Virus record (IMG/VR): IMGVR_UViG_3300028591_000173 | Coordinates: 4,799 to 68,798 of that record | DNA from: a virus | Reading direction: 5' to 3' (one strand) | DNA: 64,000 bases | Shown here: piece after piece, positions 22,709-64,000 of the stretch | How positions within the stretch are numbered: the stretch's first letter is position 1 | Layout: every line of letters starts with the position of its first letter | The notes under the pieces: model-generated | Told to the model about the DNA's origin: nothing | Database searches by the model: none | Seen by the model: only the letters and a program-made list of their open reading frames with translations | Position numbers and translations under genes: made by a program

Positions 22709-23251
22709 ATGGCAGAAGAAAACAACAGCGAAGTCGTCTTCGGACGAGACAAGAAATCGGAAGCGCCGCAGGAGGACTTCCCCCTTATCGACGAAGGGTC
22801 TTATGAGGTCGTTTTGGAAGACGTCGAGGAAAAGAAATCGGCTAAGGGCTACGAATACCTCAAGCTCAGATTCTGCATCCGAACCGATGTCGAGCAGAAC
22901 TTCAAAAACAGAAAGCTGTGGTACACCATCTTCAAGAGAGACGGCGACAAAGCCTACAACTTCAACGCGTTCAACGAGCTCATCCTGACTCAGGAAGGGA
23001 CCCCTAATTACAAGGATCACTTCGGACCTGAGAACATCAAGGAAGAGATCATTCAGTACGTCATCGGCCTTCATATGAGAGTCGATGTCGGCATCGAGCT
23101 CAACAAAGCGACGAGCAAGGACGACAACGTCATCGTGGCCGGCACGTTCGCACCGTCCATCTGGGATGCCAGCCATCCTAAGACGGCCGCCGCGGACCCA
23201 AATCCGAACACAGCGCCTATCGACGACGTTTCCGACGATCTCCCGTTCTAA
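22709..23251 (+). CDS. putative ssDNA-binding protein (DUF669-like) with SSB-type acidic C-terminal tail DDVSDDLPF
   Basis: 180-aa ORF; C-terminal D-rich ...PF tail. Confidence 0.55.
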   Translation: MAEENNSEVVFGRDKKSEAPQEDFPLIDEGSYEVVLEDVEEKKSAKGYEYLKLRFCIRTDVEQNFKNRKLWYTIFKRDGDKAYNFNAFNELILTQEGTPNYKDHFGPENIKEEIIQYVIGLHMRVDVGIELNKATSKDDNVIVAGTFAPSIWDASHPKTAAADPNPNTAPIDDVSDDLPF

Positions 23252-23287: not shown

Positions 23288-23417
23288 GGAAGCGATCCGC
23301 CGCACTCCTTTTCACAAACGAATCATCCGACTTACGAGCGGCGGATGGCAGCCCAAAGCTGCGCGCTTCCTCCAACCAAAGACACGCGGTGCGGTTCAGG
23401 CCGCATCGCTTTTCTCT

Positions 23418-23494
23418 CGGGACGTAGCACAGCTTGGTAGTGCGCCTGGTTCGGGACCAGGAGGTCGTGGGTTCGAATCCCATCGTTCCGACCA
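23418..23494 (+). tRNA. tRNA-Pro(CGG): tRNA-Pro (anticodon CGG)
   Basis: hand-folded cloverleaf: C1-G72, D arm GCAC/GTGC, anticodon loop TTCGGGA, T loop TTCGAAT, A73, CCA. Confidence 0.75.
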
Positions 23495-23524
23495 ATTCGA
23501 ATATGCAAAAATAAAATGAAATGC

Positions 23525-23554
23525 TTGACTATTGATAACAAACAATGGTAAAGT
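23525..23554 (+). promoter_or_regulatory. promoter-like TTGACT-N18-TAAAGT inside the tRNA array
   Basis: hexamers 23525-23530 / 23549-23554. Confidence 0.35.
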
Positions 23555-23593
23555 GATCGTGCTGAGGGGAAATCCTCGGCGAAAACCTGTCAT

Positions 23594-23668
23594 CGCGGGG
23601 TGGAGCAGCGGTAGCTCACTAGGTTCATACCCTAGAGGCCGTGGGTCCGAGTCCCACCCCCGCAACCA
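23594..23668 (+). tRNA. tRNA-Met(CAT): tRNA-Met (anticodon CAT), initiator-like C1:A72 mismatch
   Basis: acceptor CGCGGGG/CCCCGCA, anticodon loop TTCATAC, T loop TCCGAGT, CCA. Confidence 0.7.
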
Positions 23669-23669
23669 T

Positions 23670-23743
23670 GCCGCAGTAGTATAGTGGCAGTACCTCTGCT
23701 TCCCAAGCAGATGGCGCGGGTCCGATTCCCGTCTGCGGCTCCA
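23670..23743 (+). tRNA. tRNA-Gly(CCC): tRNA-Gly (anticodon CCC)
   Basis: acceptor GCCGCAG/CTGCGGC, U73, anticodon loop TTCCCAA, CCA. Confidence 0.75.
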
Positions 23744-23763
23744 ACCGAAAACCAAAGAAACAC

Positions 23764-23839
23764 GCCCACTTAGCTCAGAGGATAGAGCGACGACCTCCTA
23801 AGTCGTAGGCCGAGGGTTCGAGTCCTTCAGCGGGCGCCA
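23764..23839 (+). tRNA. tRNA-Arg(CCT): tRNA-Arg (anticodon CCT)
   Basis: TAGCTCAG D region, anticodon loop CTCCTAA, T loop TTCGAGT, CCA; one A:C mismatch in acceptor. Confidence 0.7.
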
Positions 23840-24052
23840 AAAAAGAAACTCAAGCCGCCAAAACAAACCACCAATTCACCACCTAAGCGCAAGGTCTTTG
23901 TAAGAGTGGGCGGCGTGTAGGGGTTAGGGCTGTAAACTCCCTAACCCTCAACCTAAGGACATAAGGCGCCTATTATAAACGACCAGTTCCGGAAAATTTT
24001 CTTTCAAAACTGACGAAAGGGGAGGGGACAACCGGGGCGCCGCCATCATAAT

Positions 24053-24127
24053 TGGGGTATAGCCAAGCGGTAAGGCTCCGGACTCTGAATCCGGGATGCG
24101 CTGGTCCGATCCCAGCTACCCCAACCA
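24053..24127 (+). tRNA. tRNA-Gln(CTG): tRNA-Gln (anticodon CTG)
   Basis: U1-A72, 3-bp D stem as in bacterial tRNA-Gln, anticodon loop CTCTGAA, CCA. Confidence 0.75.
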
Positions 24128-24133
24128 TTTGAT

Positions 24134-24210
24134 GCCTGGGTAACCGAACTGGCATAGGTACTGGCCTCAGAAGCTAGGTTTTGCGGGTCCGAATCCCGCC
24201 CTGGGCACCA
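24134..24210 (+). tRNA. tRNA-Leu?(CAG): tRNA with anticodon CAG (Leu by anticodon) but type-I architecture (5-nt variable loop), A73
   Basis: acceptor GCCTGGG/CCTGGGC (two G:U), anticodon stem CTGGC/GCTAG, loop CTCAGAA, T arm GCGGG-TCCGAAT-CCCGC, CCA. Confidence 0.55.
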
Positions 24211-24256
24211 TCAAAAGGTTGTAATCGGCCCCGTCGGGCCATTATGATAGATATGC

Positions 24257-24332
24257 GCCTGATTAGCTCAGCGGTCAGAGCAGCCGCCTCGTAAGCGGCA
24301 GGTCGGAGGTTTGATTCCTTCATCAGGCACCA
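24257..24332 (+). tRNA. tRNA-Thr(CGT): tRNA-Thr (anticodon CGT)
   Basis: acceptor GCCTGAT/ATCAGGC, TAGCTCAG, anticodon loop CTCGTAA, CCA. Confidence 0.75.
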
Positions 24333-24340
24333 CACAGGAT

Positions 24341-24414
24341 GGGGGCGTAGTTAAGCGGGATAATATCGGTTCCGCAGACCGAAGCCAGGGGTTCGACCCC
24401 CCTCGCCTCCACCA
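24341..24414 (+). tRNA. tRNA-Ala(CGC): tRNA-Ala (anticodon CGC) with G3:U70; unusual C33
   Basis: acceptor GGGGGCG/CGCCTCC, anticodon stem TCGGT/ACCGA, loop TCCGCAG, CCA. Confidence 0.55.
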
Positions 24415-24449: not shown

Positions 24450-26984
24450 ATGGCAACAATTCAAGAACTGGAAAAAAGGTATGAATCCATACCTCTTGAG
24501 ATCAAGAAGACCCGCAGATGGGTTGGCTACAGAGTCGAGGAAAGAGGCGGAAAGCAGACGAAAGTCCCTTATGACGCGATCTTCGGCAAATGGGCGAAAA
24601 GCAATGACCCGTCCACATGGACGACATTCAGCCTAGCCATCTCAGGCGCGGTGAAATACGGATTCGACGGCATCGGGTTCATGCTCGGCAAAGACACCGA
24701 GACCGACACCCATTACCTCGGGATAGACCTGGACAACCACGACGAGCCCGATTTCCAGGAGATCGCGAAGGATTTCATCGATACCCTCAACTCATATACC
24801 GAATATTCCCACAGCGGGAAAGGCATACATATCATATGCAAAGGCAAGAAGCCCGTCGGAAGATGCCGCAAAGCGAACATCGAGATGTACGACAACGGGC
24901 GCTTTTTCACCATGACCGGGAAAGTCATAAAGAACCTCCCAATAGCGCAAAGGGACCAAGAGGTCTACTCGCTATGGGAGAAATACATAGAGGACAAAGA
25001 CCATCCGCTCGAGCTCAACAACGCGTTCGCGGACGATGGAGTCGTGGTCTTCGGCAAGAGCTACAGGGCGGTCACGATAGAGAAGGACCCTCTCTCGGCG
25101 AACATGAGCGACCATGACCTCATGGACAAGATCCGCAACAGCCGATATGGGCAGGAATTCAACGCTTTGTACAACGGCGACATGAGCGCCTACGGCAACG
25201 ACCACAGCAAAGCGGATTTCGCCCTGTGCAAGATCCTCGCGTTCTGGACGGGATGTGACAGGGTTCAGATGGACAGGATATTCAGAGGAAGCGCGCTCAT
25301 CCGCGAGAAATGGGACCAAAAGAGGAGTGAGACCAACAGGAACGGCGTCACCCTCAGCGCGGGCACATTCGGGAGCCAGACCATAGAATACGCCATAGCC
25401 ACCCAGAAGGACGTGTACAGGCCCGTCAAGGAAAGGAACGTCGTCGTGGAGAACACGGGGGCGACCCTCGAGCCGACCACCGACGTGGTGGAGTTCGACG
25501 ACAAGATGGACCCGATCATCCCCGTCAAGAAGATATTCAAGACATACCCGCTCAACGACACAGGCAACGCGGAGAGATTCTACGACTATTTCGGCGAGTG
25601 GTTCAAATTCAACAAGGAAAGCAACGGGTTCATGTTCTGGAACGGGAAGACCTGGACCAAGGACATGAAAGGCTGTGTGAGGAAATACGCGAACAAGCTC
25701 ATAGACATACTCAAAGACGAGGTGAAGAGCACCGAGGAGAGAATAGAGAAGGAGAATGATCCGGACGAGGCCGACACGCTCAAATCCGTCCTCAAGGCGC
25801 AATTAGACAATGTAAAAAGAGTGTCGAATAAAGCCGGCAAGGACGCGATGCTGAGCGAGTTGCACGACCTCCACGACCTGCCTGTCGTGAACAGCGAATT
25901 CGACACGCAGGACTACCTCCTCAACACCGACAGCGGGGTATTCGACCTGCGTGACGGCACGAGGCTTCCGTTCGACAAGAAGCTCATGCTCTCCAAGAAC
26001 ACGAACTGCAAAGTGGATTTCGATACCCCGACTGTGTGGCTCAAGTTCCTCCGCGACATATTCAAGCGCCCCGATTCCAAAGAGACCGAGGAGCTCATCG
26101 AGACCATTCAGATGGCTTTGGGCGAATCGCTTACGGGAAGGACCAACAAAGAGCACCTTTACATCCTCTATGGGAACGGCAGCAACGGAAAATCCACATT
26201 CATCAAGGTCGTCAACGACGTGTTCGGCGATTACGGCACGTCGGTCAACAGCGACCTGCTCGTCCAGAGCAACAGCTCAAGCCAGGCCAACGAATTCTCA
26301 TTGTCGGCCCTGCTTGGGGCGAGAATGGTGTCCACGAGCGAGACCGCCGAGGGCAAGAAGCTCGACGAGGTCATCATCAAGAAGATGCTCGGCGGCGAGA
26401 AGATAAACGCCCAGTTCAAATACGGGCAGCCATTCTCGTTCATGCCATCGTTCAGCCCTTGGATGTCGACCAACAACAAGCCTATCATCCGCGCGACGGA
26501 TTTCGGCACGTGGCGAAGGATCTTCTTCGTCCCGTTCCTCAATACCTTCACGGAGCAGACGAAAGACGTGGAGATGCCTAAGAAACTCGCCGCCGAGGCG
26601 CCTAAGATCCTCGGCTGGATGATAAAGGGCGCGATGCGCCTCCACAACGAATTCAAGGACAAACTCCCGAAGCCGAAATGCCTCGAGGAGGCTCTCAGCG
26701 ACTACAAGAAGGAACTGGACGTCATCGTCGCGTTCCTCAACGACCGCTGCATCCGATTCCCGACGATGTCCATATCGGCATCCGTCCTCTATCAGGAATA
26801 CAAGGAATGGGCCAAGAACAACAACGAATACCTGTTCAGCGAGAGCAGATTCAAGCAGGAGATACCTAAGAAAGGCTACAAACTCCACAAAGACATCAAC
26901 AAAGGCTGGGTGTACGTAGGCCTCAAGCTCGCGAAAGACGAGCGAGGGGTCATATTCGGAAGGAACAGCGAACCTCTATGCTAA
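24450..26984 (+). CDS. DNA primase-helicase: N-terminal prim-pol domain + D5-like SF3 helicase (Walker A GNGSNGKST)
   Basis: 844-aa ORF; prim-pol motifs DLD / SGKGIH; P-loop and Walker B. Confidence 0.8.
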   Translation: MATIQELEKRYESIPLEIKKTRRWVGYRVEERGGKQTKVPYDAIFGKWAKSNDPSTWTTFSLAISGAVKYGFDGIGFMLGKDTETDTHYLGIDLDNHDEPDFQEIAKDFIDTLNSYTEYSHSGKGIHIICKGKKPVGRCRKANIEMYDNGRFFTMTGKVIKNLPIAQRDQEVYSLWEKYIEDKDHPLELNNAFADDGVVVFGKSYRAVTIEKDPLSANMSDHDLMDKIRNSRYGQEFNALYNGDMSAYGNDHSKADFALCKILAFWTGCDRVQMDRIFRGSALIREKWDQKRSETNRNGVTLSAGTFGSQTIEYAIATQKDVYRPVKERNVVVENTGATLEPTTDVVEFDDKMDPIIPVKKIFKTYPLNDTGNAERFYDYFGEWFKFNKESNGFMFWNGKTWTKDMKGCVRKYANKLIDILKDEVKSTEERIEKENDPDEADTLKSVLKAQLDNVKRVSNKAGKDAMLSELHDLHDLPVVNSEFDTQDYLLNTDSGVFDLRDGTRLPFDKKLMLSKNTNCKVDFDTPTVWLKFLRDIFKRPDSKETEELIETIQMALGESLTGRTNKEHLYILYGNGSNGKSTFIKVVNDVFGDYGTSVNSDLLVQSNSSSQANEFSLSALLGARMVSTSETAEGKKLDEVIIKKMLGGEKINAQFKYGQPFSFMPSFSPWMSTNNKPIIRATDFGTWRRIFFVPFLNTFTEQTKDVEMPKKLAAEAPKILGWMIKGAMRLHNEFKDKLPKPKCLEEALSDYKKELDVIVAFLNDRCIRFPTMSISASVLYQEYKEWAKNNNEYLFSESRFKQEIPKKGYKLHKDINKGWVYVGLKLAKDERGVIFGRNSEPLC

Positions 26985-31237: not shown

Positions 31238-31314
31238 GCTCCATTAGCTCAGCGGTCCAGAGCGGGCGCCTTATAAGCGCTAGGTCGGCGGTTCGAACCC
31301 GTCATGGAGCACCA
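31238..31314 (+). tRNA. tRNA-Ile(TAT): tRNA-Ile (anticodon TAT, reads AUA)
   Basis: acceptor GCTCCAT/ATGGAGC, TAGCTCAGCGG, anticodon loop CTTATAA, T loop TTCGAAC, A73, CCA. Confidence 0.7.
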
Positions 31315-31474: not shown

Positions 31475-32608
31475 ATGATCAGAGCAATTTTATTCGCGGT
31501 ATTCATCGTGCTCATGCTCGCCGCGATCGCCGTAGCAGCCTACGGCGGATGGAAGTGGTACGCATCGCTTGAGGAGGAACCGAAGAAGAAGACCTACGGG
31601 TTCTACGAGCCTGGCGTAAAGCCGGAAGAAGCCCCAAAGAAACCTAAGAAAGGCCTCTTCGTGGCAGGCTTGTTCGCCTTCATCGCGTCCGTCGCCCTCA
31701 CCGTATTCGTGCCGGGCAGCGTCCATCAGGTCGACACAGGAACAGTGGCCGTCGTAAGGCATCTCGGCAAAATCGTCGACATGAGGCAGCCGGGAACCTA
31801 TTTCGACTTCTACATGACGAACCATTACGAGACCTACGACACCAAGGTCCAGCAGGTCGAGATCGTCACCGCCGCGTATTCCCGCGACGGGCAGACGATG
31901 GAGCTTGAGGTCTTCCTTCAGTACAAGGTTCAGAGCGACCATATCATGGACATCGCCACCCAGTACGGAAGCCTCGACGCATTGCAGTCCCGCATCGAGA
32001 CGCAGACCATCGAGAAGACCAAAGCGGTCATGTCCAGCGACATCGCCATGAACATCATCCAAAACAGACCGCAGTTCTCCAATGACGTCAGCGAGGCTGT
32101 CAGAGCCGGCATCTCAGATGACTACTTCGTCGATGTCAAAGACGTCGTCCTCACCAACATCGATTTCACAGATGAATTCGAGCGCTCAGTCGAGGCCAAG
32201 GTCATCGCCGAGCAGGAAAAGCAAGCCGCCGAGACCAGAGCCAACGCAGAGGCGGAAGTCGCCAGGATCAAAGCCGAGGCGGAGAAGACCGTCGCGCAGA
32301 TCGAGGCGGAGAAGAGGGTCATCGAGGCCGAAGCCGATGCCGAGGTCGTGAGAATCGCCGCCGAGGCTGAGGCGAAAGCCGCCGTCGCCAAGATCGTCGA
32401 GCTTGCCAAGACCATCGGGTTCAACGTCATCGAGAACGAGGATGGATACGTCATCGAGTTCGACGCGATCCACACCGAGCAGATGTTCAGGGAAGCCGTC
32501 GAGGAATACCTCGAATACCTCGCTTATCTCGAGAAATGGAACGGCGAGCTCCCACAGGTCGTCTCAGGCGACGATGCCGTAAGCATCATCATCCCGAACG
32601 GCAACTAA
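31475..32608 (+). CDS. SPFH/band-7 (HflK/C-, prohibitin-like) membrane protein with coiled-coil Ala/Glu-rich region
   Basis: N-terminal TM pair; VDTGTVAVVRHLGKIVD...PGTYF SPFH core; AEAEAKAA repeats. Confidence 0.75.
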   Translation: MIRAILFAVFIVLMLAAIAVAAYGGWKWYASLEEEPKKKTYGFYEPGVKPEEAPKKPKKGLFVAGLFAFIASVALTVFVPGSVHQVDTGTVAVVRHLGKIVDMRQPGTYFDFYMTNHYETYDTKVQQVEIVTAAYSRDGQTMELEVFLQYKVQSDHIMDIATQYGSLDALQSRIETQTIEKTKAVMSSDIAMNIIQNRPQFSNDVSEAVRAGISDDYFVDVKDVVLTNIDFTDEFERSVEAKVIAEQEKQAAETRANAEAEVARIKAEAEKTVAQIEAEKRVIEAEADAEVVRIAAEAEAKAAVAKIVELAKTIGFNVIENEDGYVIEFDAIHTEQMFREAVEEYLEYLAYLEKWNGELPQVVSGDDAVSIIIPNGN

Positions 32609-32621
32609 AAAACAAAAAACG

Positions 32622-32644
32622 GAGCGGGGCATCCCGCTCTTTAT
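32622..32644 (+). terminator. intrinsic terminator GAGCGGG-GCAT-CCCGCTC + TTTAT
   Basis: 7-bp GC stem directly after the SPFH stop. Confidence 0.5.
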
Positions 32645-32727
32645 GGGCCCATGGTTCAAAGGCAGAACGGGCGGCAAAGACCGTCAGACCCGCGTTCGAT
32701 CCGCGGTGGACCCAACTGAAAAAAGAT

Positions 32728-32961
32728 ATGAGAAAGAACGAACGAACGACAAGCAGGATGGAACCGCCCGTCGGAAGGAAAGGCATCCCTGAGATCCGCT
32801 ACAGGATAATCTACAGGAGCCGTTCCGCAGGCAAAATCAAGACGATGGAGGCGACCAAACGCACCATCATGGGGAAAATAGTCGTCATCCGGAAAAAAGG
32901 ATATGCCATAGACGACATAGAGGTATATCAGCCAAAGGAGGGAAAGAACGATGTTCGATGA
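32728..32961 (+). CDS. small basic protein (uncertain)
   Basis: internal ATG of ORF 32536..32961; no clear SD. Confidence 0.3.
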   Translation: MRKNERTTSRMEPPVGRKGIPEIRYRIIYRSRSAGKIKTMEATKRTIMGKIVVIRKKGYAIDDIEVYQPKEGKNDVR

Positions 32962-59889: not shown

Positions 59890-60135
59890 TCAAGCGTTTT
59901 CTTTTATTGCTGACAAGAAGCTGACTGGGACGAGCGATAGGATCCTCTCCCTGACGATGAAGTCGAGCATGAAGTTGCCCTTCTTCCCGGATTTCCTCTC
60001 CGGTCGGACCGAGGCGAACCTGATCCCCCTCTTCGTCTCAAGGCCCTCGATCTTCCCGATGAAGTAGCCTTGGCCCTTCTGATCCCAGGCCTTGACGGTC
60101 TGGCCTTTCGTGAACTTGTTTTTGGTATCCTTCAT
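59890..60135 (-). CDS. hypothetical protein
   Basis: SD aaggagg upstream of ATG at 60135. Confidence 0.5.
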   Translation of the reverse strand: MKDTKNKFTKGQTVKAWDQKGQGYFIGKIEGLETKRGIRFASVRPERKSGKKGNFMLDFIVRERILSLVPVSFLSAIKENA

Positions 60136-60205
60136 ATGCGGATCCTCCTTTTCGCAAGCTCATTCTAGCCTATTGATTATCATAAGTCAAGAGGTTTTTT
60201 TGATT

Positions 60206-60394
60206 TTAGATCATATAATCGTATTTTTTCTTGATCCTGCCCAACATCCTGGCGGCTTTCTTCCAGAACATCGAGCTTTTCCTGACGGGTTTCCCCACGA
60301 CTGGGTCGGCGAAGACGTGGAATCTCCCTGTGAACGTGTCCAGGTCGATGCCGCTTGAGCCGTTGCGGCCTGAGCTCCTGTAGATCTTCATCAT
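60206..60394 (-). CDS. small hypothetical protein
   Basis: ORF. Confidence 0.4.
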   Translation of the reverse strand: MMKIYRSSGRNGSSGIDLDTFTGRFHVFADPVVGKPVRKSSMFWKKAARMLGRIKKKYDYMI

Positions 60395-60588
60395 CTGCGT
60401 TTCCTCTTCCCGAGGGGGATCGCGAAGGATTCCTTGGCCTTGCTGAGCTCCTTGGCCTTGTTCAGGCTCTCAAGCTCTTTCCTGAACGCCGCGTACCTGG
60501 CGCATCCGTCGTGGCAGGCGGCATGCCTGTCCTCGCAGCCTTTGCATGGGGACATCAGCCCCCCGTTCCATCCGAATCCTGTGATCAT
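60391..60588 (-). CDS. Cys-rich small protein (CxxC...CxxxC)
   Basis: ORF. Confidence 0.45.
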   Translation of the reverse strand: MITGFGWNGGLMSPCKGCEDRHAACHDGCARYAAFRKELESLNKAKELSKAKESFAIPLGKRKRR

Positions 60589-60746
60589 CTTCCGGCTCCT
60601 CTCAGCGCCATCACCGCTTTGTTCATTATCTCGTTCATGCTCTTCTTGGTCCTCTTCGACCTGGTTCTCACGTACGCGTCCAGCTCAGGGGTGAGGTTGA
60701 CTGTGATGGATCTGCTCGCGTACGTGGCCTTGCCGTGCCGGCTCAT
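60585..60746 (-). CDS. ribbon-helix-helix (CopG/Arc-like) DNA-binding protein, 53 aa, not in ORF track
   Basis: MSRHGKATYASRSITVNLTPELDAYVRTRSKRTKKSMNEIMNKAVMAL; ATGA overlaps on both sides. Confidence 0.5.
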   Translation of the reverse strand: MSRHGKATYASRSITVNLTPELDAYVRTRSKRTKKSMNEIMNKAVMALRGAGR

Positions 60747-60943
60747 AGGTCCTCCTTCATCCTGATCAGCTCCGATGCGGAAAGCCCGAAGGCCCTCCTG
60801 AGCTTGTCCCAGGTCGATCGGCTGCCGCCGGATCTCCCGTTTTCGATGAGACAGTAGTTCGCGGTCGTGATCCCCAACCGTGCTGCCATCTCCCTCTGGG
60901 TGAGATCATGCCTGACCCTGAGTACTTTGAGTTCGGTCCTCAT
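60743..60943 (-). CDS. XRE-family HTH regulator
   Basis: LTQREMAARLGITTANYCLIENG. Confidence 0.65.
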   Translation of the reverse strand: MRTELKVLRVRHDLTQREMAARLGITTANYCLIENGRSGGSRSTWDKLRRAFGLSASELIRMKEDL

Positions 60944-61320
60944 GCCGCTTTCTCCCTCAGGTAGACGAAGATCGTCCCCTCTCTGACGCAGGCTTTCAGG
61001 CTGGCCCTGATCCTAAGCTCCCTGAACGCCTTCCTGATGACCGCCTCGACGGTGAGCCTCTCGTAAGGCTTCATGAAATCGATCCCGAAGACGTCGTAGG
61101 CCGGCGTCTCGATCTTCGGCCTCTCGTCCCCCCAGTACCAGAATATGACGACGTGGCTTGGGAACCCTTTCCGGATCTGCTTGCGCCTGACCGCCAGGAA
61201 AGCCCCCTCGCCGGCCAGCGCGACCCAGAACGCCTCAGGCGCCTTCTCGCTGAGCTCAGCGTCCTTGAGCTCCCTCGGGAACCTCTCTATCCCCATGTCT
61301 TTGATCTTTGCGTTCTCCAT
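60940..61320 (-). CDS. hypothetical protein, first gene of the - strand operon
   Basis: 126-aa ORF. Confidence 0.5.
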   Translation of the reverse strand: MENAKIKDMGIERFPRELKDAELSEKAPEAFWVALAGEGAFLAVRRKQIRKGFPSHVVIFWYWGDERPKIETPAYDVFGIDFMKPYERLTVEAVIRKAFRELRIRASLKACVREGTIFVYLREKAA

Positions 61321-61349
61321 ATTTATATACCTCTTTCTGTGTATGCCTT

Positions 61350-61379
61350 ATTCTATCGCCTATCATATGTAAATGTCAA
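61350..61379 (-). promoter_or_regulatory. sigma70-like promoter (- strand) TTGACA-N18-TAGAAT
   Basis: reverse complement of 61374-61379 / 61350-61355. Confidence 0.5.
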
Positions 61380-61408
61380 TAAAAAAATTATCGATGTTGA
61401 TCGGGACC

Positions 61409-61422
61409 CCCCTTACCGTGCT
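61409..61422. repeat. copy 1 of conserved motif CCCCTTACCGTGCT, flanked by GATCGGG direct repeats
   Basis: exact 14/15 match to the other copies. Confidence 0.7.
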
Positions 61423-61434
61423 CCGATCGGGCGC

Positions 61435-61458
61435 AAAAAGAAAAGGGGCCGAAGCCCC
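61435..61458 (-). terminator. intrinsic terminator (- strand) GGGGC-TTCG-GCCCC + TTTTCTTTTT
   Basis: 8 nt after the stop of 61466..62080. Confidence 0.7.
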
Positions 61459-61465
61459 GATCCGG

Positions 61466-62080
61466 TCAGTGCTGCCTGAAGTAGACCGACTGCCCTTTCT
61501 CCAGGGACCAGCAAGCCAGGCATTCGGGGCAATGCCCCCCGCATGGGATGGCCAGGTCCGGGATGTCCGGGTTGAGCTCGCCTTTCCTGAAGAGCACATA
61601 CGCGACCGGCAGCCTGTAAGGGTTGTCGACCCGGAATGACTTGCTCCAGGCGCTGAAGACGATTCTCAGGTTCTTGGGAATCCTGCCGCCGCGGCCTAAG
61701 TAGCCGTTGACGATGCCGAACTTCTTCGTGAAGCATAGGAACTTGACGCCCGGGCAGGCTTTCGCGACCTTCACCATCCCGAGGAAGTACGCGTCGTCGA
61801 CTATGTCCCCGACCGCATGCCAGCGGAAGTACTTATAGGAGACGAGCGAATCATTGAGGAATGAGACGATGTCGCCGAAGTACGCGTCGGAGTCCGCCAT
61901 ATAGCGCTCATAGTTGTGCCTGTGGGACTCCTGGACGTTCCTGAATAGGAAGTTGCCCCTCTTGCCGTAGCAGAGGCGCGCGCAGGGCGCGTCTTCCCTG
62001 CAGCTCATCTGGGGAGGCAGCGACACGCTTGGTATCTGCGAGCCCAGCTTCGAATTTGTCATTGAGATGTTGATTTCCAT
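61466..62080 (-). CDS. Cys-rich hypothetical protein (cassette 1); possibly DUF5131/Gp37-Gp68-like
   Basis: 204-aa ORF; SCREDAPCARLCYG and CGGHCPECLAC clusters. Confidence 0.55.
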   Translation of the reverse strand: MEINISMTNSKLGSQIPSVSLPPQMSCREDAPCARLCYGKRGNFLFRNVQESHRHNYERYMADSDAYFGDIVSFLNDSLVSYKYFRWHAVGDIVDDAYFLGMVKVAKACPGVKFLCFTKKFGIVNGYLGRGGRIPKNLRIVFSAWSKSFRVDNPYRLPVAYVLFRKGELNPDIPDLAIPCGGHCPECLACWSLEKGQSVYFRQH

Positions 62081-62099
62081 TTTCTTAACCTCTGACTAT

Positions 62100-62127
62100 A
62101 TATTACACTTACATACGCATATGTCAA
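62100..62127 (-). promoter_or_regulatory. promoter (- strand) TTGACA-N16-TAATAT
   Basis: reverse complement of 62122-62127 / 62100-62105. Confidence 0.45.
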
Positions 62128-62160
62128 GTAAATCTTTTGACGAATTTCATCTGATCACGA

Positions 62161-62203
62161 TGCACGGGCCTGGGAATCCGGATCCAGATGGGTTACCGTG
62201 CTG
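62161..62203. repeat. copy 2: inverted repeat TGCACGG...TTACCGTGCTG
   Basis: motif at 62193-62203. Confidence 0.65.
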
Positions 62204-62217
62204 CGATCGGGAGGCAT

Positions 62218-62243
62218 AAAAAAAGAGGCGGGTGATCCGCCTC
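62218..62243 (-). terminator. intrinsic terminator (- strand) GAGGCGG-ATCAC-CCGCCTC + TTTTTTT
   Basis: 17 nt after the stop of 62260..62523. Confidence 0.75.
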
Positions 62244-62259
62244 GATGCGACGCTGTCCG

Positions 62260-62523
62260 TCAGTCCTCGTCTTCCAGGAGCTCAGGCTCGCAGCCGGCTT
62301 TGTCGATGAGCCATTCCTTGAATGCCTCGTCAGGCGCGTCCGCGTCCTTGGTCAGCTCCCTGTATGCCTTGAGAAGGTCGACGGGGGTGTAGAAGTTGTC
62401 GTCGTAGGAGATGGCTTTGCTCTCGCCTTGGTAGTTCGCCATCACCCACATGCAATGCTCCTGTGAGTTGAAGAGCTCGACGTATGCGTCGCAGTAGTGG
62501 TTTTCGGTGTTCGGTTCTCTCAT
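62260..62523 (-). CDS. hypothetical acidic protein (cassette 2), start trimmed to ATG 62523
   Basis: SD aaggagg 7 nt upstream; the upstream part of track ORF 62260..62607 contains the promoter. Confidence 0.5.
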   Translation of the reverse strand: MREPNTENHYCDAYVELFNSQEHCMWVMANYQGESKAISYDDNFYTPVDLLKAYRELTKDADAPDEAFKEWLIDKAGCEPELLEDED

Positions 62524-62548
62524 ATACGAACCTCCTTTTCTATACCAT

Positions 62549-62577
62549 ATGTTAGCATCTCCTATGATATATGTCAA
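62549..62577 (-). promoter_or_regulatory. promoter (- strand) TTGACA-N17-TAACAT
   Basis: CCTATTGACATAT conserved with the 63303..63331 promoter. Confidence 0.55.
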
Positions 62578-62620
62578 TAGGTTTATTTGACTTTTATTAA
62601 CTTTCATCCAGATCAGATCG

Positions 62621-62665
62621 GAGCACGGAGGATCATCTGATGCCTGTCATCCCCTTACCGTGCTG
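62621..62665. repeat. copy 3: inverted repeat GAGCACGG-(22 nt)-CCCCTTACCGTGCTG
   Basis: motif 62651-62665. Confidence 0.7.
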
Positions 62666-62678
62666 GCTTTGGGCGCAT

Positions 62679-62710
62679 AAAAAAAAGAGGCAGAGCTAGC
62701 TGTCTGCCTC
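62679..62710 (-). terminator. intrinsic terminator (- strand) GAGGCAGA..TCTGCCTC + TTTTTTTT
   Basis: 10 nt after the stop of 62720..63274. Confidence 0.75.
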
Positions 62711-62719
62711 CCCTCCTTC

Positions 62720-63274
62720 CTAATCGCCTATAACCCAGAGGTAGTCTTCGGTCTGATTCCTTCTGTGAGGATTCAGGACGACGCTGACCAAGTCGTCTTT
62801 GTCGTAGTCGGGGTTCTCGATGATTCTGCCTTCGGAATCCTGCCCGGCTTCCTGAATCGACTGGGTGTCGTTCGTCACGCATTCCCCGTCTTTGTAGAGG
62901 AGATGCTCGCTGAACGCCATACCCGTCTCTTCGCTGAAGGCCTCGATTTCGCATCCCTTCGAGAGCTCTTTCAGGGTGGTTCCCATAAAGATGTCCGGGT
63001 GGTCGGTCTTCAGAAGGTCGTAGTAGGTGAGCTCGCCCTCGCACATACAGACATACAGGCTCCAAGCGCAGTACCCACTGACGAATTGGGTGAAGGTCCC
63101 GTCCCCGTTGTCGTGGACTTCATCGGCGTTCGCCTCGAAGACTCTCTGAAGGTGCTTGTGGGCCGGTTTGCCCTCACCGTAGTTGTAGTCGGCTTTCAGG
63201 CACTCAAGCACATTCTTGATGATGTTTTTGTCGCTACTTCTGATTTTCATCTCGTAGTCGCAGTAGTTCGGCAT
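62720..63274 (-). CDS. hypothetical Cys-containing protein (cassette 3), start trimmed to ATG 63274
   Basis: SD aaggaggg 8 nt upstream. Confidence 0.5.
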   Translation of the reverse strand: MPNYCDYEMKIRSSDKNIIKNVLECLKADYNYGEGKPAHKHLQRVFEANADEVHDNGDGTFTQFVSGYCAWSLYVCMCEGELTYYDLLKTDHPDIFMGTTLKELSKGCEIEAFSEETGMAFSEHLLYKDGECVTNDTQSIQEAGQDSEGRIIENPDYDKDDLVSVVLNPHRRNQTEDYLWVIGD

Positions 63275-63302
63275 ATCTATGCCCTCCTTTTCTTGTTGCC
63301 TT

Positions 63303-63331
63303 AATATTAAACCTATATAGGGCATATGTCA
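63303..63331 (-). promoter_or_regulatory. promoter (- strand) TTGACA-N17-TAATAT
   Basis: reverse complement of 63326-63331 / 63303-63308. Confidence 0.55.
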
Positions 63332-63374
63332 ATAGGGAATTAAGACTTTTATTAATTTTCTTATGAGCTCAGGA

Positions 63375-63419
63375 CAGCACGGGGCATGATCATCCGGATC
63401 GGATCCCCTTACCGTGCTG
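63375..63419. repeat. copy 4: inverted repeat CAGCACGGGG-(20 nt)-CCCCTTACCGTGCTG
   Basis: motif 63405-63419; spacer contains TGATCA / TCCGGA / GGATCC palindromes. Confidence 0.7.
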
Positions 63420-63440
63420 GCACATCGCCGGCGCGGCATG

Positions 63441-63466
63441 AAAAAAAGCGCCCTCGTTGGGGCGCT
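63441..63466 (-). terminator. intrinsic terminator (- strand) AGCGCCC-CAACGA-GGGCGCT + TTTTTTT
   Basis: 16 nt after the stop of 63482..63730. Confidence 0.75.
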
Positions 63467-63481
63467 CGCGAGAACCCTCGC

Positions 63482-63730
63482 TTAGAGGGTCTCGACTTTG
63501 AGCTTGGCTTCGAGTTGCTCGTAGACGGCTTTGGTGACGACGATGTCGGTTCCGCCCTCGAGGACGATTTTGTAGTTGCTCTCGTTCTCTTCGGTTCTCA
63601 CCTCGTTGCCATTCTCGTCGAAGAGTTTGGTAGGCTTGAGCTTGAGTTCCTTGACGGCGACGATTTTGTTGGTGTCGATGAGGGCGTCGGTTTCCTCGTG
63701 TTTGTGGTTGAGACGTTTGATTTTAAGCAT
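63482..63730 (-). CDS. hypothetical protein (cassette 4)
   Basis: 82-aa ORF, SD gagg. Confidence 0.5.
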   Translation of the reverse strand: MLKIKRLNHKHEETDALIDTNKIVAVKELKLKPTKLFDENGNEVRTEENESNYKIVLEGGTDIVVTKAVYEQLEAKLKVETL

Positions 63731-63800
63731 TGTTTTTTTCCTCGCTTTCTTTTTTTTGATTTAGGGGGAAGAGGTCTCTTTTTCTTCCCCCTATGCCTAT

Positions 63801-63829
63801 ATATTAAACTTATATATGGGACTTGTCAA
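63801..63829 (-). promoter_or_regulatory. promoter (- strand) TTGACA-N17-TAATAT, followed by a 5'-UTR hairpin GGGGGAAGA...TCTTCCCCC (63754-63791)
   Basis: reverse complement of 63824-63829 / 63801-63806. Confidence 0.5.
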
Positions 63830-63842
63830 CAACTTTTTAGAT

Positions 63843-64000
63843 TTATTTTATGTTCCTCACTTTGATGAGGTCTACGAGCATTCCACTCTTGTTGCGTTTC
63901 TCAATGAAAATGCATGCGTGTGGGACATTCTCAGGGACTTTGAAATGTTTTCCAAAGGCGAAAGCAGTCGCGTCAGCGTAGCTATAGAAAAAGCCTTTTT
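63843..64000 (-). CDS. partial CDS (C-terminal about 52 aa; start beyond window), cassette 5
   Basis: open frame to window edge, ends ...LIKVRNIK*. Confidence 0.35.
   Translation of the reverse strand, partial: KGFFYSYADATAFAFGKHFKVPENVPHACIFIEKRNKSGMLVDLIKVRNIK

What the first reader, a model, noticed from the sequence alone, without database searches (positions are those of the whole stretch)
23418..24414. Eight-gene tRNA array in which every anticodon has C34
Hand-folded tRNAs are Pro(CGG), Met(CAT), Gly(CCC), Arg(CCT), Gln(CTG), a CAG-anticodon tRNA, Thr(CGT) and Ala(CGC); all decode G-ending codons. Some spacers are as short as 1 nt, and there is an internal promoter-like site (23525-23554). 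Several members have a noncanonical T-loop TCCGA (C55) and the Met tRNA has the initiator-type C1:A72 mismatch. Such a biased set points to deliberate supplementation of NNG decoding for this high-GC phage in a host whose tRNA pool is weak for those codons.
Basis: partly seen in the sequence, partly recalled or inferred. Interest (0 to 1): 0.6.

Follow-up and report, generated by a model that had tools for sequence, protein, structure and literature searches.

The report
Phage tRNA cluster retuned to NNG
This is a real cluster of eight phage tRNA genes that all read G-ending codons; they descend from A/G-reading (U34) tRNAs of AT-rich sister phages and switched their wobble base from U to C as the whole genome's synonymous sites moved from A/T to G/C, which makes it an ordinary kind of element caught in an unusually clear episode of codon-anticodon co-evolution.

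Summary
The array lies between a DUF669 gene and the primase of an uncultured phage of about 75 kb. Sister phages whose primases are 75-81% identical carry a syntenic array with U34 anticodons (Pro-TGG, Gly-TCC, Leu-TAG, Thr-TGT, Ala-TGC, Arg-TCT). Those phages have GC3 of 0.24-0.40; the window has 0.78. The shift is almost purely synonymous: T became C at 70% of conserved third positions and A became G at 60%. Across the family, U34 tRNAs (n=17) occur where the NNG share of NNA+NNG codons is 0.07-0.59, and C34 tRNAs (n=9) where it is 0.64-0.86. A second deeply diverged high-GC relative (L111) also has Gln-CTG and Thr-CGT. The set is therefore mostly an inherited array retuned in place to the phage's own codon usage. 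Whether the host is weak for NNG codons could not be tested, because the host is unknown. The C55 T-loops are real and rare (4/9 versus 0/80). The short Leu tRNA belongs to a form already annotated in T5-like phages. A ninth tRNA, Ile-UAU at 31238, matches heavy ATA use.

The parts
22709..23251 (+). DUF669 gene, the upstream boundary of the conserved tRNA insertion site
   Evidence: Pfam PF05037. The order DUF3799, DUF669, gap, primase, ResIII helicase is conserved in relatives.
23386..23409 (+). Terminator-like hairpin followed by TTTTCTCT, just upstream of the first tRNA
   Evidence: Consensus scan: 10 pairs, 7 of them G-C. Function not shown.
23418..23494 (+). tRNA-Pro(CGG), with C1:G72, A73 and a canonical TTCGA T-loop
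   Evidence: 66 bits. It is 0.71-0.78 identical to the syntenic Pro(TGG) of L002, L090, L092 and L003.
23525..23554 (+). Promoter-like site TTGACT-18-TAAAGT, with TG before the second hexamer
   Evidence: It is identical in L001. Consensus match only.
23594..23668 (+). Initiator-like tRNA-Met(CAT): C1xA72, acceptor stem CGCGGGG, A11:U24, two of three anticodon-stem G:C pairs, C55
   Evidence: 60.4 bits. It is 0.81 identical to L002 Met. Features read.
23670..23743 (+). tRNA-Gly(CCC), with U73 and C55, 1 nt after the Met tRNA
   Evidence: 62.2 bits. It is 0.76 identical to L002 Gly(TCC), and the 1-nt Met-Gly spacer is the same.
23764..23839 (+). tRNA-Arg(CCT); reads AGG, the phage's commonest Arg codon (47%)
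   Evidence: (62.5 bits). No clear orthologue was found; within the window it is closest to Thr and Ile (0.74).
23840..24052 (+). 213-nt spacer with one hairpin (23921-23947) and a promoter-like site (24025-24052). No tRNA or Rfam family.
   Evidence: One search found no match. Fold z-score is 0.04. Promoter-like site.
24053..24127 (+). tRNA-Gln(CTG), with U1:A72, A73 and C55
   Evidence: 61.9 bits. It resembles L111 Gln(CTG), which also has U1:A72 and C55.
24134..24210 (+). tRNA-Leu(CAG), short form: 5-nt variable loop, 3-bp D stem with an 11-nt D loop, A73, A15/U48, C55
   Evidence: 48.8 bits. Cloverleaf covariation across six short Leu tRNAs: 100% of cells paired, 16 of 20 pairs compensatory. 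CTG codons align with Leu. 77-nt tRNA-Leu genes are annotated in T5-like phages.
24219..24248 (+). Promoter-like site TTGTAA-18-TATGAT upstream of Thr; the second hexamer region is conserved in L002 (TATAAT)
24257..24332 (+). tRNA-Thr(CGT)
   Evidence: 68.9 bits. It is 0.75 identical to L002 Thr(TGT).
24341..24414 (+). tRNA-Ala(CGC), with G3:U70 and A73
   Evidence: 52.2 bits. The Thr-Ala adjacency is shared with L002, but sequence identity is at background level.
24450..26984 (+). Primase-polymerase/D5-type helicase gene, the downstream boundary, used as the anchor to find relatives
   Evidence: Pfam PF22763, PF08706, PF19263 and PF03288. 783 homologues.
31238..31314 (+). Ninth tRNA, Ile(TAT), with U34, outside the array; reads ATA, which is 41% of Ile codons
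   Evidence: (67 bits). Also present in L001.

Best explanation
The array is an accessory phage tRNA gene cluster at a conserved hotspot between the DUF669 gene and the primase gene. It supplies extra decoders for the phage's own mRNAs. Most of its members were inherited from an array of U34 tRNAs, which read NNA and NNG, in AT-rich ancestors. This lineage underwent a near-saturating A:T to G:C transition sweep at synonymous sites, plausibly after moving to a higher-GC host (inferred). NNG codons then overtook NNA codons, and the wobble base of each resident tRNA changed from T to C, giving Watson-Crick readers of the now dominant NNG codons.

Shown: the tRNAs and their anticodons; orthology and synteny with U34 arrays; the synonymous GC shift; and the complete association between wobble base and NNG share.

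Inferred: that the tRNAs are expressed and charged; that C34 improves translation of phage genes; and that a host change caused the sweep.
For: 1. Eight intact tRNAs are called by two methods.
2. L002 (primase 80% identical) has the order Pro-Met-Gly...Leu-Thr-Ala with TGG, TCC, TAG, TGT and TGC, plus Arg-TCT. Seven of the window's eight isoacceptor families are shared.
3. The tRNA bodies are orthologous: Pro 0.71-0.78, Met 0.81, Gly 0.76, Thr 0.75 and Leu 0.71, against a background of 0.52-0.68. The 1-nt Met-Gly spacer is the same and the -10-like element before Thr is conserved.
4. The CAG tRNA is a short-arm Leu tRNA. That form was found here only in phage sequences, and the identity review says cellular Leu tRNAs keep a long arm. 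It therefore most likely derives from the phage's Leu-TAG and not from host capture.
5. Window GC3 is 0.78, against 0.21-0.42 in 15 relatives. Primase GC1/GC2/GC3 are 0.48/0.35/0.78, against 0.44/0.34/0.28 in L090.
6. At conserved codons, T became C in 70% and A became G in 60% of cases.
7. U34 tRNAs (n=17) occur where the NNG share is 0.07-0.59, and C34 tRNAs (n=9) where it is 0.64-0.86. L002, partway along the sweep (T to C 34%), still has NNG below 0.5 and still has U34.
8. A second high-GC relative, L111 (74% amino-acid identity), has Gln-CTG and Thr-CGT.
9. Purifying selection on the tRNAs is evident. U8, U33 and T54 are kept in all of them. The stems show compensatory changes. The identity elements are intact: G3:U70 in Ala, C1:G72/A73 in Pro, U73 in Gly and A73 in Leu.
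10. The covered codons are all frequent, at 17.7-28.6 per thousand.
Against: - The host is unknown, so no benefit over the host tRNA pool has been shown.
- Given 70% T to C at free sites, five or six T34-to-C34 changes are not significantly more than mutation pressure alone would give (0.7^5 = 0.17).
- The commonest NNG codons (GAG, AAG) and the commonest codons overall (NNC) have no phage tRNA.
- Arg-CCT, Gln-CTG and Ala-CGC have no demonstrable U34 orthologue, so part of the set may have been gained rather than converted.
- The window and L111 may share one ancestral shift. The wobble/GC association may therefore rest on only one or two independent events.
- Four tRNAs carry C55, which could impair folding or charging.
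Confidence: 0.7

Rival explanations
1. A by-product of mutation pressure with no adaptive tuning. The same strand-wide T-to-C drive that removed third-position T simply hit position 34, and position 55, of accessory tRNA genes that contribute little. The uniform C34 is then drift, and some members may be decaying.
For: T became C at 70% of synonymous T sites, so 5-6 conversions out of 5-6 is not significant against that rate. The universally conserved U55 became C in four window tRNAs and in L111 Gln, and U33 became C in L111 Thr. That suggests mutation pressure strong enough to fix changes at conserved uridines, or relaxed constraint. GAG and AAG are not covered.
Against: The tRNAs kept full cloverleaves with compensatory stem changes and intact identity elements through a sweep that replaced about 90% of free third-position T. 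Within the tRNAs only 32% of T became C, and U8, U33 and T54 were kept in every window tRNA. Rfam scores are 49-69 bits. The array is kept in L001 and in the deeply diverged L111. A change at position 34 alters which codon is read, so it is not functionally silent.
Confidence: 0.17
2. Defence evasion or independence from host modification. C34 and C55 would make the phage tRNAs insensitive to host anticodon nucleases or toxins that recognise modified U34, or independent of host U34- and U55-modifying enzymes. The phage tRNAs would then replace host tRNAs that are depleted during infection.
For: This is the published hypothesis for phage tRNAs (PMC10264068). Both positions that changed are sites of uridine modification. 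A relative (L008) encodes an RNA ligase domain, PF09414. From my own knowledge, such ligases take part in tRNA repair in T4.
Against: The wobble state follows the phage's own NNG share exactly, and nuclease evasion does not predict that. A C34 tRNA cannot replace a cleaved U34 tRNA for NNA codons. No tRNA-repair or anti-nuclease gene was found in the window, although many of its smaller ORFs were not scanned. The host and its nucleases are unknown.
Confidence: 0.08
3. Wholesale capture. The C34 tRNAs were picked up as a block from a new high-GC host and replaced the old array.
For: Arg-CCT, Gln-CTG and Ala-CGC show only background similarity to any tRNA of the AT-rich relatives. tRNA content at this site turns over among family members.
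Against: Pro, Met, Gly, Leu and Thr are orthologous to the U34 array in sequence, order and spacers. The short-arm Leu form was found here only in phage sequences. Seven of eight isoacceptor families are shared with L002.
Confidence: 0.05

Closest known systems
Phage tRNA gene clusters explained by codon compensation (for example T4, T5 and many large virulent phages)
   Same: Tandem tRNA genes with short spacers and encoded CCA, placed among early or replication genes. The anticodons match codons that the phage uses heavily.
   Different: Here every informative anticodon has C34, and sister phages carry the U34 versions at the same site, so the tuning can be seen as a change at one nucleotide per tRNA. 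The comparison with the host that defines 'compensation' could not be made.
Phage tRNAs proposed to resist anticodon nucleases (mycobacteriophage cluster C1; PMC10264068)
   Same: Phage tRNAs differ from expectation within the anticodon loop.
   Different: The difference here is the wobble base itself and it changes decoding. It correlates with the phage's codon usage, whereas that study found no codon-frequency signal.
Short (about 77 nt) tRNA-Leu genes of T5-like phages (Demerecviridae) and of some jumbo phages
   Same: A Leu-type D arm (3-bp stem, 11-nt loop, G18G19), A73 and a 5-nt variable loop. Identity to the window's Leu tRNA is 80-82%, and the genes are annotated tRNA-Leu at 77-78 nt. 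L094 Leu-tag is 0.81 identical.
   Different: The window copy has anticodon CAG and C55, while the others seen have TAA, TAG or CAA and U55.
tRNA anticodon shifts or 'tRNA gene recruitment' in cellular genomes (recalled from memory, not checked here)
   Same: A point mutation in the anticodon re-assigns a tRNA gene to another codon of the same family.
   Different: Here several isoacceptors in one phage array appear to have shifted in the same direction, together with a genome-wide compositional sweep.

Membership tests
Canonical tRNA (Rfam RF00005) | Covariance-model score at or above the gathering threshold (29 bits) | tested here: met
   All eight array tRNAs and Ile-tat score 48.8-68.9 bits. 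ARAGORN agrees.
Canonical tRNA (Rfam RF00005) | Conserved T-loop T54-U55-C56-R57-A58 (U55 becomes pseudouridine 55) | tested here: not met
   Met, Gly, Gln and Leu have T54-C55-C56-G57-A58, while Pro, Arg, Thr, Ala and Ile are canonical. Other fetched tRNAs: 0 of 80 with C55.
Canonical tRNA (Rfam RF00005) | U33 and a 7-nt anticodon loop | tested here: met
   All nine window tRNAs have T33 (sequences).
Bacterial initiator tRNA-fMet | C1xA72 mismatch, with G2:C71, C3:G70 and G4:C69 | tested here: met
   Acceptor stem CGCGGGG / CCCCGCA followed by ACCA.
Bacterial initiator tRNA-fMet | A11:U24 in the D stem | tested here: met
   D stem GAGC / GCTC.
Bacterial initiator tRNA-fMet | Three consecutive G:C pairs at 29-31 / 39-41 | tested here: not met
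   The anticodon stem is CTAGG / CCTAG, so only 30:40 and 31:39 are G:C and 29:41 is A:U. The L002 orthologue is the same.
tRNA-Leu (bacterial, class II) | Long variable arm | tested here: not met
   The variable loop is 5 nt (GTTTT). The cloverleaf is supported by covariation in six short Leu tRNAs.
tRNA-Leu (bacterial, class II) | A73, A15:U48, G18G19 and A20a, which are the E. coli LeuRS determinants (PMC9976931) | tested here: met
   Read from the sequence: D loop GAACTGGCATA, U48 as the last base of the variable loop, and discriminator A. The G18:U55 contact listed in that review is altered here by C55.
tRNA-Leu (bacterial, class II) | The cognate codon means Leu in the phage's proteins | tested here: met
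   CTG codons of the primase align with Leu in 78% of homologue residues, against 80% for CTC.
tRNA-Ala | G3:U70 and A73 | tested here: met
   Acceptor stem GGGGGCG / CGCCTCC followed by ACCA.
Codon-compensating phage tRNA set | The tRNAs read codons that the phage uses heavily | tested here: met
   The covered codons are used at 17.7-28.6 per thousand, and the NNG share is 0.64-0.86.
Codon-compensating phage tRNA set | Those codons are rare in the host, or the host has few cognate tRNAs | not testable with these tools
   Host unidentified.
Nuclease-resistant phage tRNAs | Anticodon-loop differences from host tRNAs at known cleavage sites | not testable with these tools
   Host tRNAs and host nucleases are unknown.

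The most novel reading that the evidence does not exclude
The U-to-C changes at the two uridines that are normally modified, wobble U34 and the near-universal U55, are selected rather than tolerated. The phage would then carry a tRNA set that works without host U34- and U55-modifying enzymes, or that escapes a host factor recognising those modified uridines. C55 would be stably maintained, since it is shared by the window and the deeply diverged L111 Gln tRNA. A related possibility is that a specific A:T-to-G:C mutator process, not ordinary host amelioration, drove the purely synonymous sweep.
Probability: 0.1. Interest if true: 0.75.

Novelty: new member of a known kind. Interest (0 to 1): 0.42.

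Why it matters
Why phages carry tRNA genes is still debated; the two main ideas are codon compensation and escape from tRNA-targeting defences (PMC10264068, PMC13015707). This family offers a natural experiment. The proteins are about 80% identical. The tRNA array sits at the same site in each phage. GC3 ranges from about 0.25 to 0.8. The wobble base switches exactly where NNG overtakes NNA.

That is direct comparative evidence that the anticodons of phage tRNAs follow the phage's own codon usage. It also gives matched U34 and C34 arrays that could be swapped experimentally.

The family additionally shows how far a phage's synonymous sites can move while its amino-acid composition stays put, and that U55 can be replaced by C in tRNAs that otherwise look functional.

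Tried and rejected
- **BLASTN of the array region against GenBank phages:** only generic tRNA similarity, no close relative.
- **Single-protein primase search in IMG/VR:** nothing found.
- **Exact Leu-tRNA pattern in IMG/VR:** nothing found.
- **Met-Gly junction pattern in JGI metagenomes and IMG/VR:** 12 hits, all chance matches without tRNAs.
- **CTG recoding by the oddly shaped CAG tRNA:** rejected. CTG aligns with Leu as often as CTC does.
- **Short Leu tRNA as a novelty of this phage:** rejected. The same form is annotated in T5-like phages and occurs in jumbo-phage contigs.
- **A hidden tRNA or other RNA in the 213-nt gap:** no Rfam match and no structure beyond chance (z = 0.04).
- **ARAGORN 'tRNA-???(aa)' at 32644-32716:** treated as a false positive. 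It has no Rfam support, it lies inside ORF 32536-32961, and ARAGORN does not call it in the 98%-identical L001.
- **Host identification from window genes:** no integrase, lysin or host flank among the ORFs scanned. MAG labels for relatives say only Clostridia or Lachnospiraceae, and those relatives are the AT-rich ones.
- **Independence of the two high-GC lineages:** unresolved. Four-point distance sums are 0.43 against 0.45 and 0.46, and synonymous matching exceeds expectation (318 observed, 247 expected), which shared ancestry or a shared regime could both explain.
- **Ile-UAU and Arg-CCU as paralogues of Thr made by a change at position 35:** only weakly suggested (0.74-0.77 against a background of 0.68 or less), and the shared D arm is generic.
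- **DUF2828 protein of relatives as a Ro60-like partner of the adjacent small tRNA-like gene:** no sequence match in the PDB. Left open.
Full report
**1. The observation**

ARAGORN finds eight tRNA genes on the + strand between 23418 and 24414. They are Pro-cgg, Met-cat, Gly-ccc, Arg-cct, Gln-ctg, Leu-cag, Thr-cgt and Ala-cgc. Rfam's tRNA model matches all eight at 48.8-68.9 bits, against a threshold of 29.
- The Met-Gly spacer is 1 nt.
- All eight genes encode CCA.
- The Met tRNA has C1xA72, with the E. coli-type initiator acceptor stem CGCGGGG/CCCCGCA and A11:U24. It has only two of the three G:C pairs expected at the bottom of the anticodon stem.
- Met, Gly, Gln and Leu have the T-loop TCCGA, that is, C55.

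The promoter-like site at 23525-23554 is found by the consensus scan, along with two more such sites on the + strand inside the array and a terminator-like hairpin just before the first tRNA. These are consensus matches only.

A ninth tRNA, Ile-tat at 31238-31314, has U34. An ARAGORN call at 32644-32716 looks like a false positive: it has no Rfam support, it lies inside an ORF, and it is not called in the 98%-identical relative L001.

**2. Context**

The window is about 55% GC throughout, and its recognisable genes are transcribed in one direction up to about 60 kb. They include a large terminase, a portal and a 1705-aa ORF. The array sits between a DUF669 gene and a primase-polymerase/D5-helicase gene.

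GenBank phages hold no close relative. The large protein collection holds hundreds of homologous primases on uncultured contigs of 62-85 kb. The gene order DUF3799, DUF669, gap, primase, ResIII helicase is conserved among them.

**3. The key comparison**

- L001 (98% identical primase) has the same nine tRNAs.
- L002 (80% identical) has ten tRNAs at the same site: Cys-gca, Pro-TGG, Met, Gly-TCC, Val-tac, Asn-gtt, Leu-TAG, Thr-TGT, Ala-TGC and Arg-TCT. Seven of the window's eight isoacceptor families are therefore present in L002, and six of them carry U34 where the window has C34.
- Other clade members carry smaller U34 or G34 sets (L090, L092, L003). More distant members carry none, or other small sets.

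The window and L002 arrays align. The Met-Gly 1-nt spacer is identical, and the -10-like element before Thr is conserved. Pairwise identities to the syntenic U34 tRNAs are 0.71-0.81 for Pro, Met, Gly, Thr and Leu, against a background of 0.52-0.68 between unrelated tRNAs. Arg-CCT, Gln-CTG and Ala-CGC have no demonstrable orthologue in the AT-rich relatives.

**4. Composition**

The window's lineage is an outlier. Its GC is 0.55 and its GC3 0.78, whereas 15 relatives have GC 0.31-0.41 and GC3 0.21-0.42.

The shift is almost purely synonymous. Primase GC1/GC2/GC3 are 0.48/0.35/0.78 in the window and 0.44/0.34/0.28 in L090, and the GARP/FYMINK amino-acid ratio is unchanged at 0.60.

At conserved codons where L090 has third-base T, the window has C in 70% of cases and T in 10%. 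Where L090 has A, the window has G in 60%. L002 is partway along the same path (T to C 34%, A to G 25%), even though its primase is 96% identical to that of L090.

Third-position T in the window is only 7.6%.

**5. Codons and anticodons**

In the window the NNG share of NNA+NNG is 0.64-0.86 for the seven families served by C34 tRNAs. In L002 it is 0.15-0.41 for the six of those families for which L002 carries a U34 tRNA.

The covered codons are all frequent, per thousand codons: CCG 17.8, GGG 20.5, AGG 28.6, CAG 21.7, CTG 20.2, ACG 17.7 and GCG 26.9. The rare CGG (3.0) and TTG (4.7) have no tRNA. Neither do the very common GAG (55) and AAG (47), nor the NNC codons that top most four-codon boxes.

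Across all family loci, the 17 U34 tRNAs lie in phages where the matching NNG share is 0.07-0.59, and the 9 C34 tRNAs where it is 0.64-0.86. The two groups do not overlap.

The last look-up gave L111. It is deeply diverged from the window, at 74% amino-acid identity over primase plus helicase, and it is also high-GC (primase GC3 0.82). The visible end of its array holds Gln-CTG, Thr-CGT and Asp-GTC. Whether the window and L111 shifted independently is unresolved.

**6. Selection or mutation?**

Within the five orthologous tRNA pairs, 32% of T positions became C and 56% stayed T. U8, U33 and T54 were always kept, the stems changed by compensation, and every T34 became C.

Position 34 thus behaves like a synonymous third-codon site, not like an average constrained tRNA site. 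Against the 70% rate at free sites, five or six conversions out of five or six is not significant. The uniform C34 is therefore what mutation pressure would give wherever the change is allowed, and it is allowed, or favoured, because the codons moved the same way.

The tRNAs stayed intact through a sweep that replaced about 90% of free third-position T. That indicates they are under purifying selection and so probably functional.

**7. The odd members**

*The CAG tRNA.* It is 77 nt long, with a 5-nt variable loop. Its D arm is of the Leu type (3-bp stem, 11-nt loop), and it has A73, A15 and U48. The review PMC9976931 lists these as the E. coli LeuRS determinants and reports that the long arm is dispensable.
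- Six such short Leu tRNAs support the cloverleaf by covariation: 100% of cells pair, 16 of 20 pairs show compensatory changes, and 0 of 500 shuffles reach the observed values.
- CTG codons align with Leu as often as CTC codons do (78% against 80%), so there is no recoding.
- The form is not new. T5-like phages annotate 77-nt tRNA-Leu genes that are 80-82% identical, and unrelated jumbo-phage contigs carry them too.

*C55.* It occurs in 4 of the window's 9 tRNAs and in 0 of 80 distinct tRNAs from all other fetched DNA (p = 5e-5). It recurs in L111's Gln tRNA, and L111's Thr tRNA even has C33. The review PMC7912444 calls pseudouridine 55 the most universally conserved tRNA modification. The simplest reading is that the T-to-C drive is eroding conserved loop uridines that can tolerate the change. 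A selected role is not excluded.

*Ile-UAU.* It matches the striking use of ATA, which is 41% of Ile codons in the window and 50% in L111, against about 20% in AT-rich relatives. ATA cannot escape by an A-to-G transition without becoming Met.

**8. Comparison and verdict**

This is a phage tRNA gene cluster, which is a known kind of element, and it matches the phage's own codon usage as the codon-compensation idea expects. The part of that idea that concerns the host could not be tested.

The nuclease-evasion hypothesis (PMC10264068) does not predict the exact tracking of NNG share. Wholesale capture from a host is contradicted for five members.

What is unusual is the clarity of the evolutionary record: matched U34 and C34 arrays in sister phages separated by a nearly pure synonymous A:T-to-G:C sweep.

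I rate it a new member of a known kind, of moderate interest.

Noticed in passing
window 31238-31314: A ninth tRNA, Ile(TAT), lies outside the array between a 266-aa ORF and the SPFH/Band_7 gene. ATA is 41% of Ile codons (25.6 per thousand), twice its share in AT-rich relatives, while ATT has fallen to 4%. No relative's locus other than L001 showed this tRNA. L111 uses ATA for 50% of Ile codons.
   Followed up: partly
window 1-60000 (whole coding strand): Third-position base use is A 0.14, C 0.45, G 0.33, T 0.076. AT skew is about +0.25 along the whole coding strand. GC1, GC2 and amino-acid composition are unchanged relative to relatives of 31-41% GC. This looks like a near-saturating synonymous A:T-to-G:C transition sweep with extra depletion of T. 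Its cause (host change or a mutator process) is unknown.
   Followed up: partly
L002 10073-12607 versus L090 10001-12517: These two primases are 96% identical in protein sequence but have GC3 of 0.47 and 0.28. Synonymous composition therefore moves very fast in this clade. L002 has ten tRNAs and L090 has four.
   Followed up: partly
L111 211-285 and 133-206: In the second high-GC relative, the Thr(CGT) tRNA has anticodon loop CCCGTAA, with C33 in place of the universal U33. Its Gln(CTG) tRNA has the same TCCGA (C55) T-loop as the window's Gln.
   Followed up: partly
L002 7200-8884; L003 7278-8957; L090 7802-9483; L092 7412-9103: AT-rich clade members have a 523-526-aa DUF2828/DUF7788 protein inserted upstream of the array. 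Directly after it comes a conserved AT-rich tRNA-like gene of 69-71 nt with a weak acceptor stem, no CCA and a variable 'anticodon' (called Cys-gca, Ser-gct, Ser-tga or unknown). This may be a protein plus tRNA-like RNA pair. The window lacks both. The protein has no sequence match in the PDB.
   Followed up: partly
window 32644-32716: ARAGORN calls a 'tRNA-???' with a two-base anticodon inside ORF 32536-32961. It has no Rfam support and is not called in the 98%-identical L001, so it is probably a false positive.
   Followed up: yes
window 23764-23839, 24257-24332 and 31238-31314: Arg(CCT), Thr(CGT) and Ile(TAT) are more alike (0.74-0.77) than any other tRNA pairs in the window (0.68 or less). 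Their anticodons differ from one another mainly at position 35. This is a weak hint that they are paralogues made by anticodon change, but the shared D arm is a generic one.
   Followed up: partly
L094 13454-13610; L095 9952-10108; L096 8760-8836 and 5061-5464: Unrelated jumbo-phage contigs (237 kb and 313 kb) carry short 77-nt Leu tRNAs (tag, caa) beside a normal 85-nt Leu(taa), within arrays of 14-19 tRNAs. L096 also carries a tmRNA gene.
   Followed up: no
L008 21784-22446; L002 4594-5388 and 13938-14600; L003 9301-9975; L090 17347-19857: Relatives carry an RNA ligase domain protein (PF09414). They also carry GIY-YIG and HNH homing endonucleases, one of them between the tRNAs and the primase, and an intein-containing C5 DNA methylase. 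None of these was seen in the window's counterpart regions.
   Followed up: no
window about 60000-64000: The coding strand switches here (AT skew turns negative) and GC falls to 0.50. Minus-strand ORFs include a GP88-family protein at 61466-62080. No integrase was found.
   Followed up: partly
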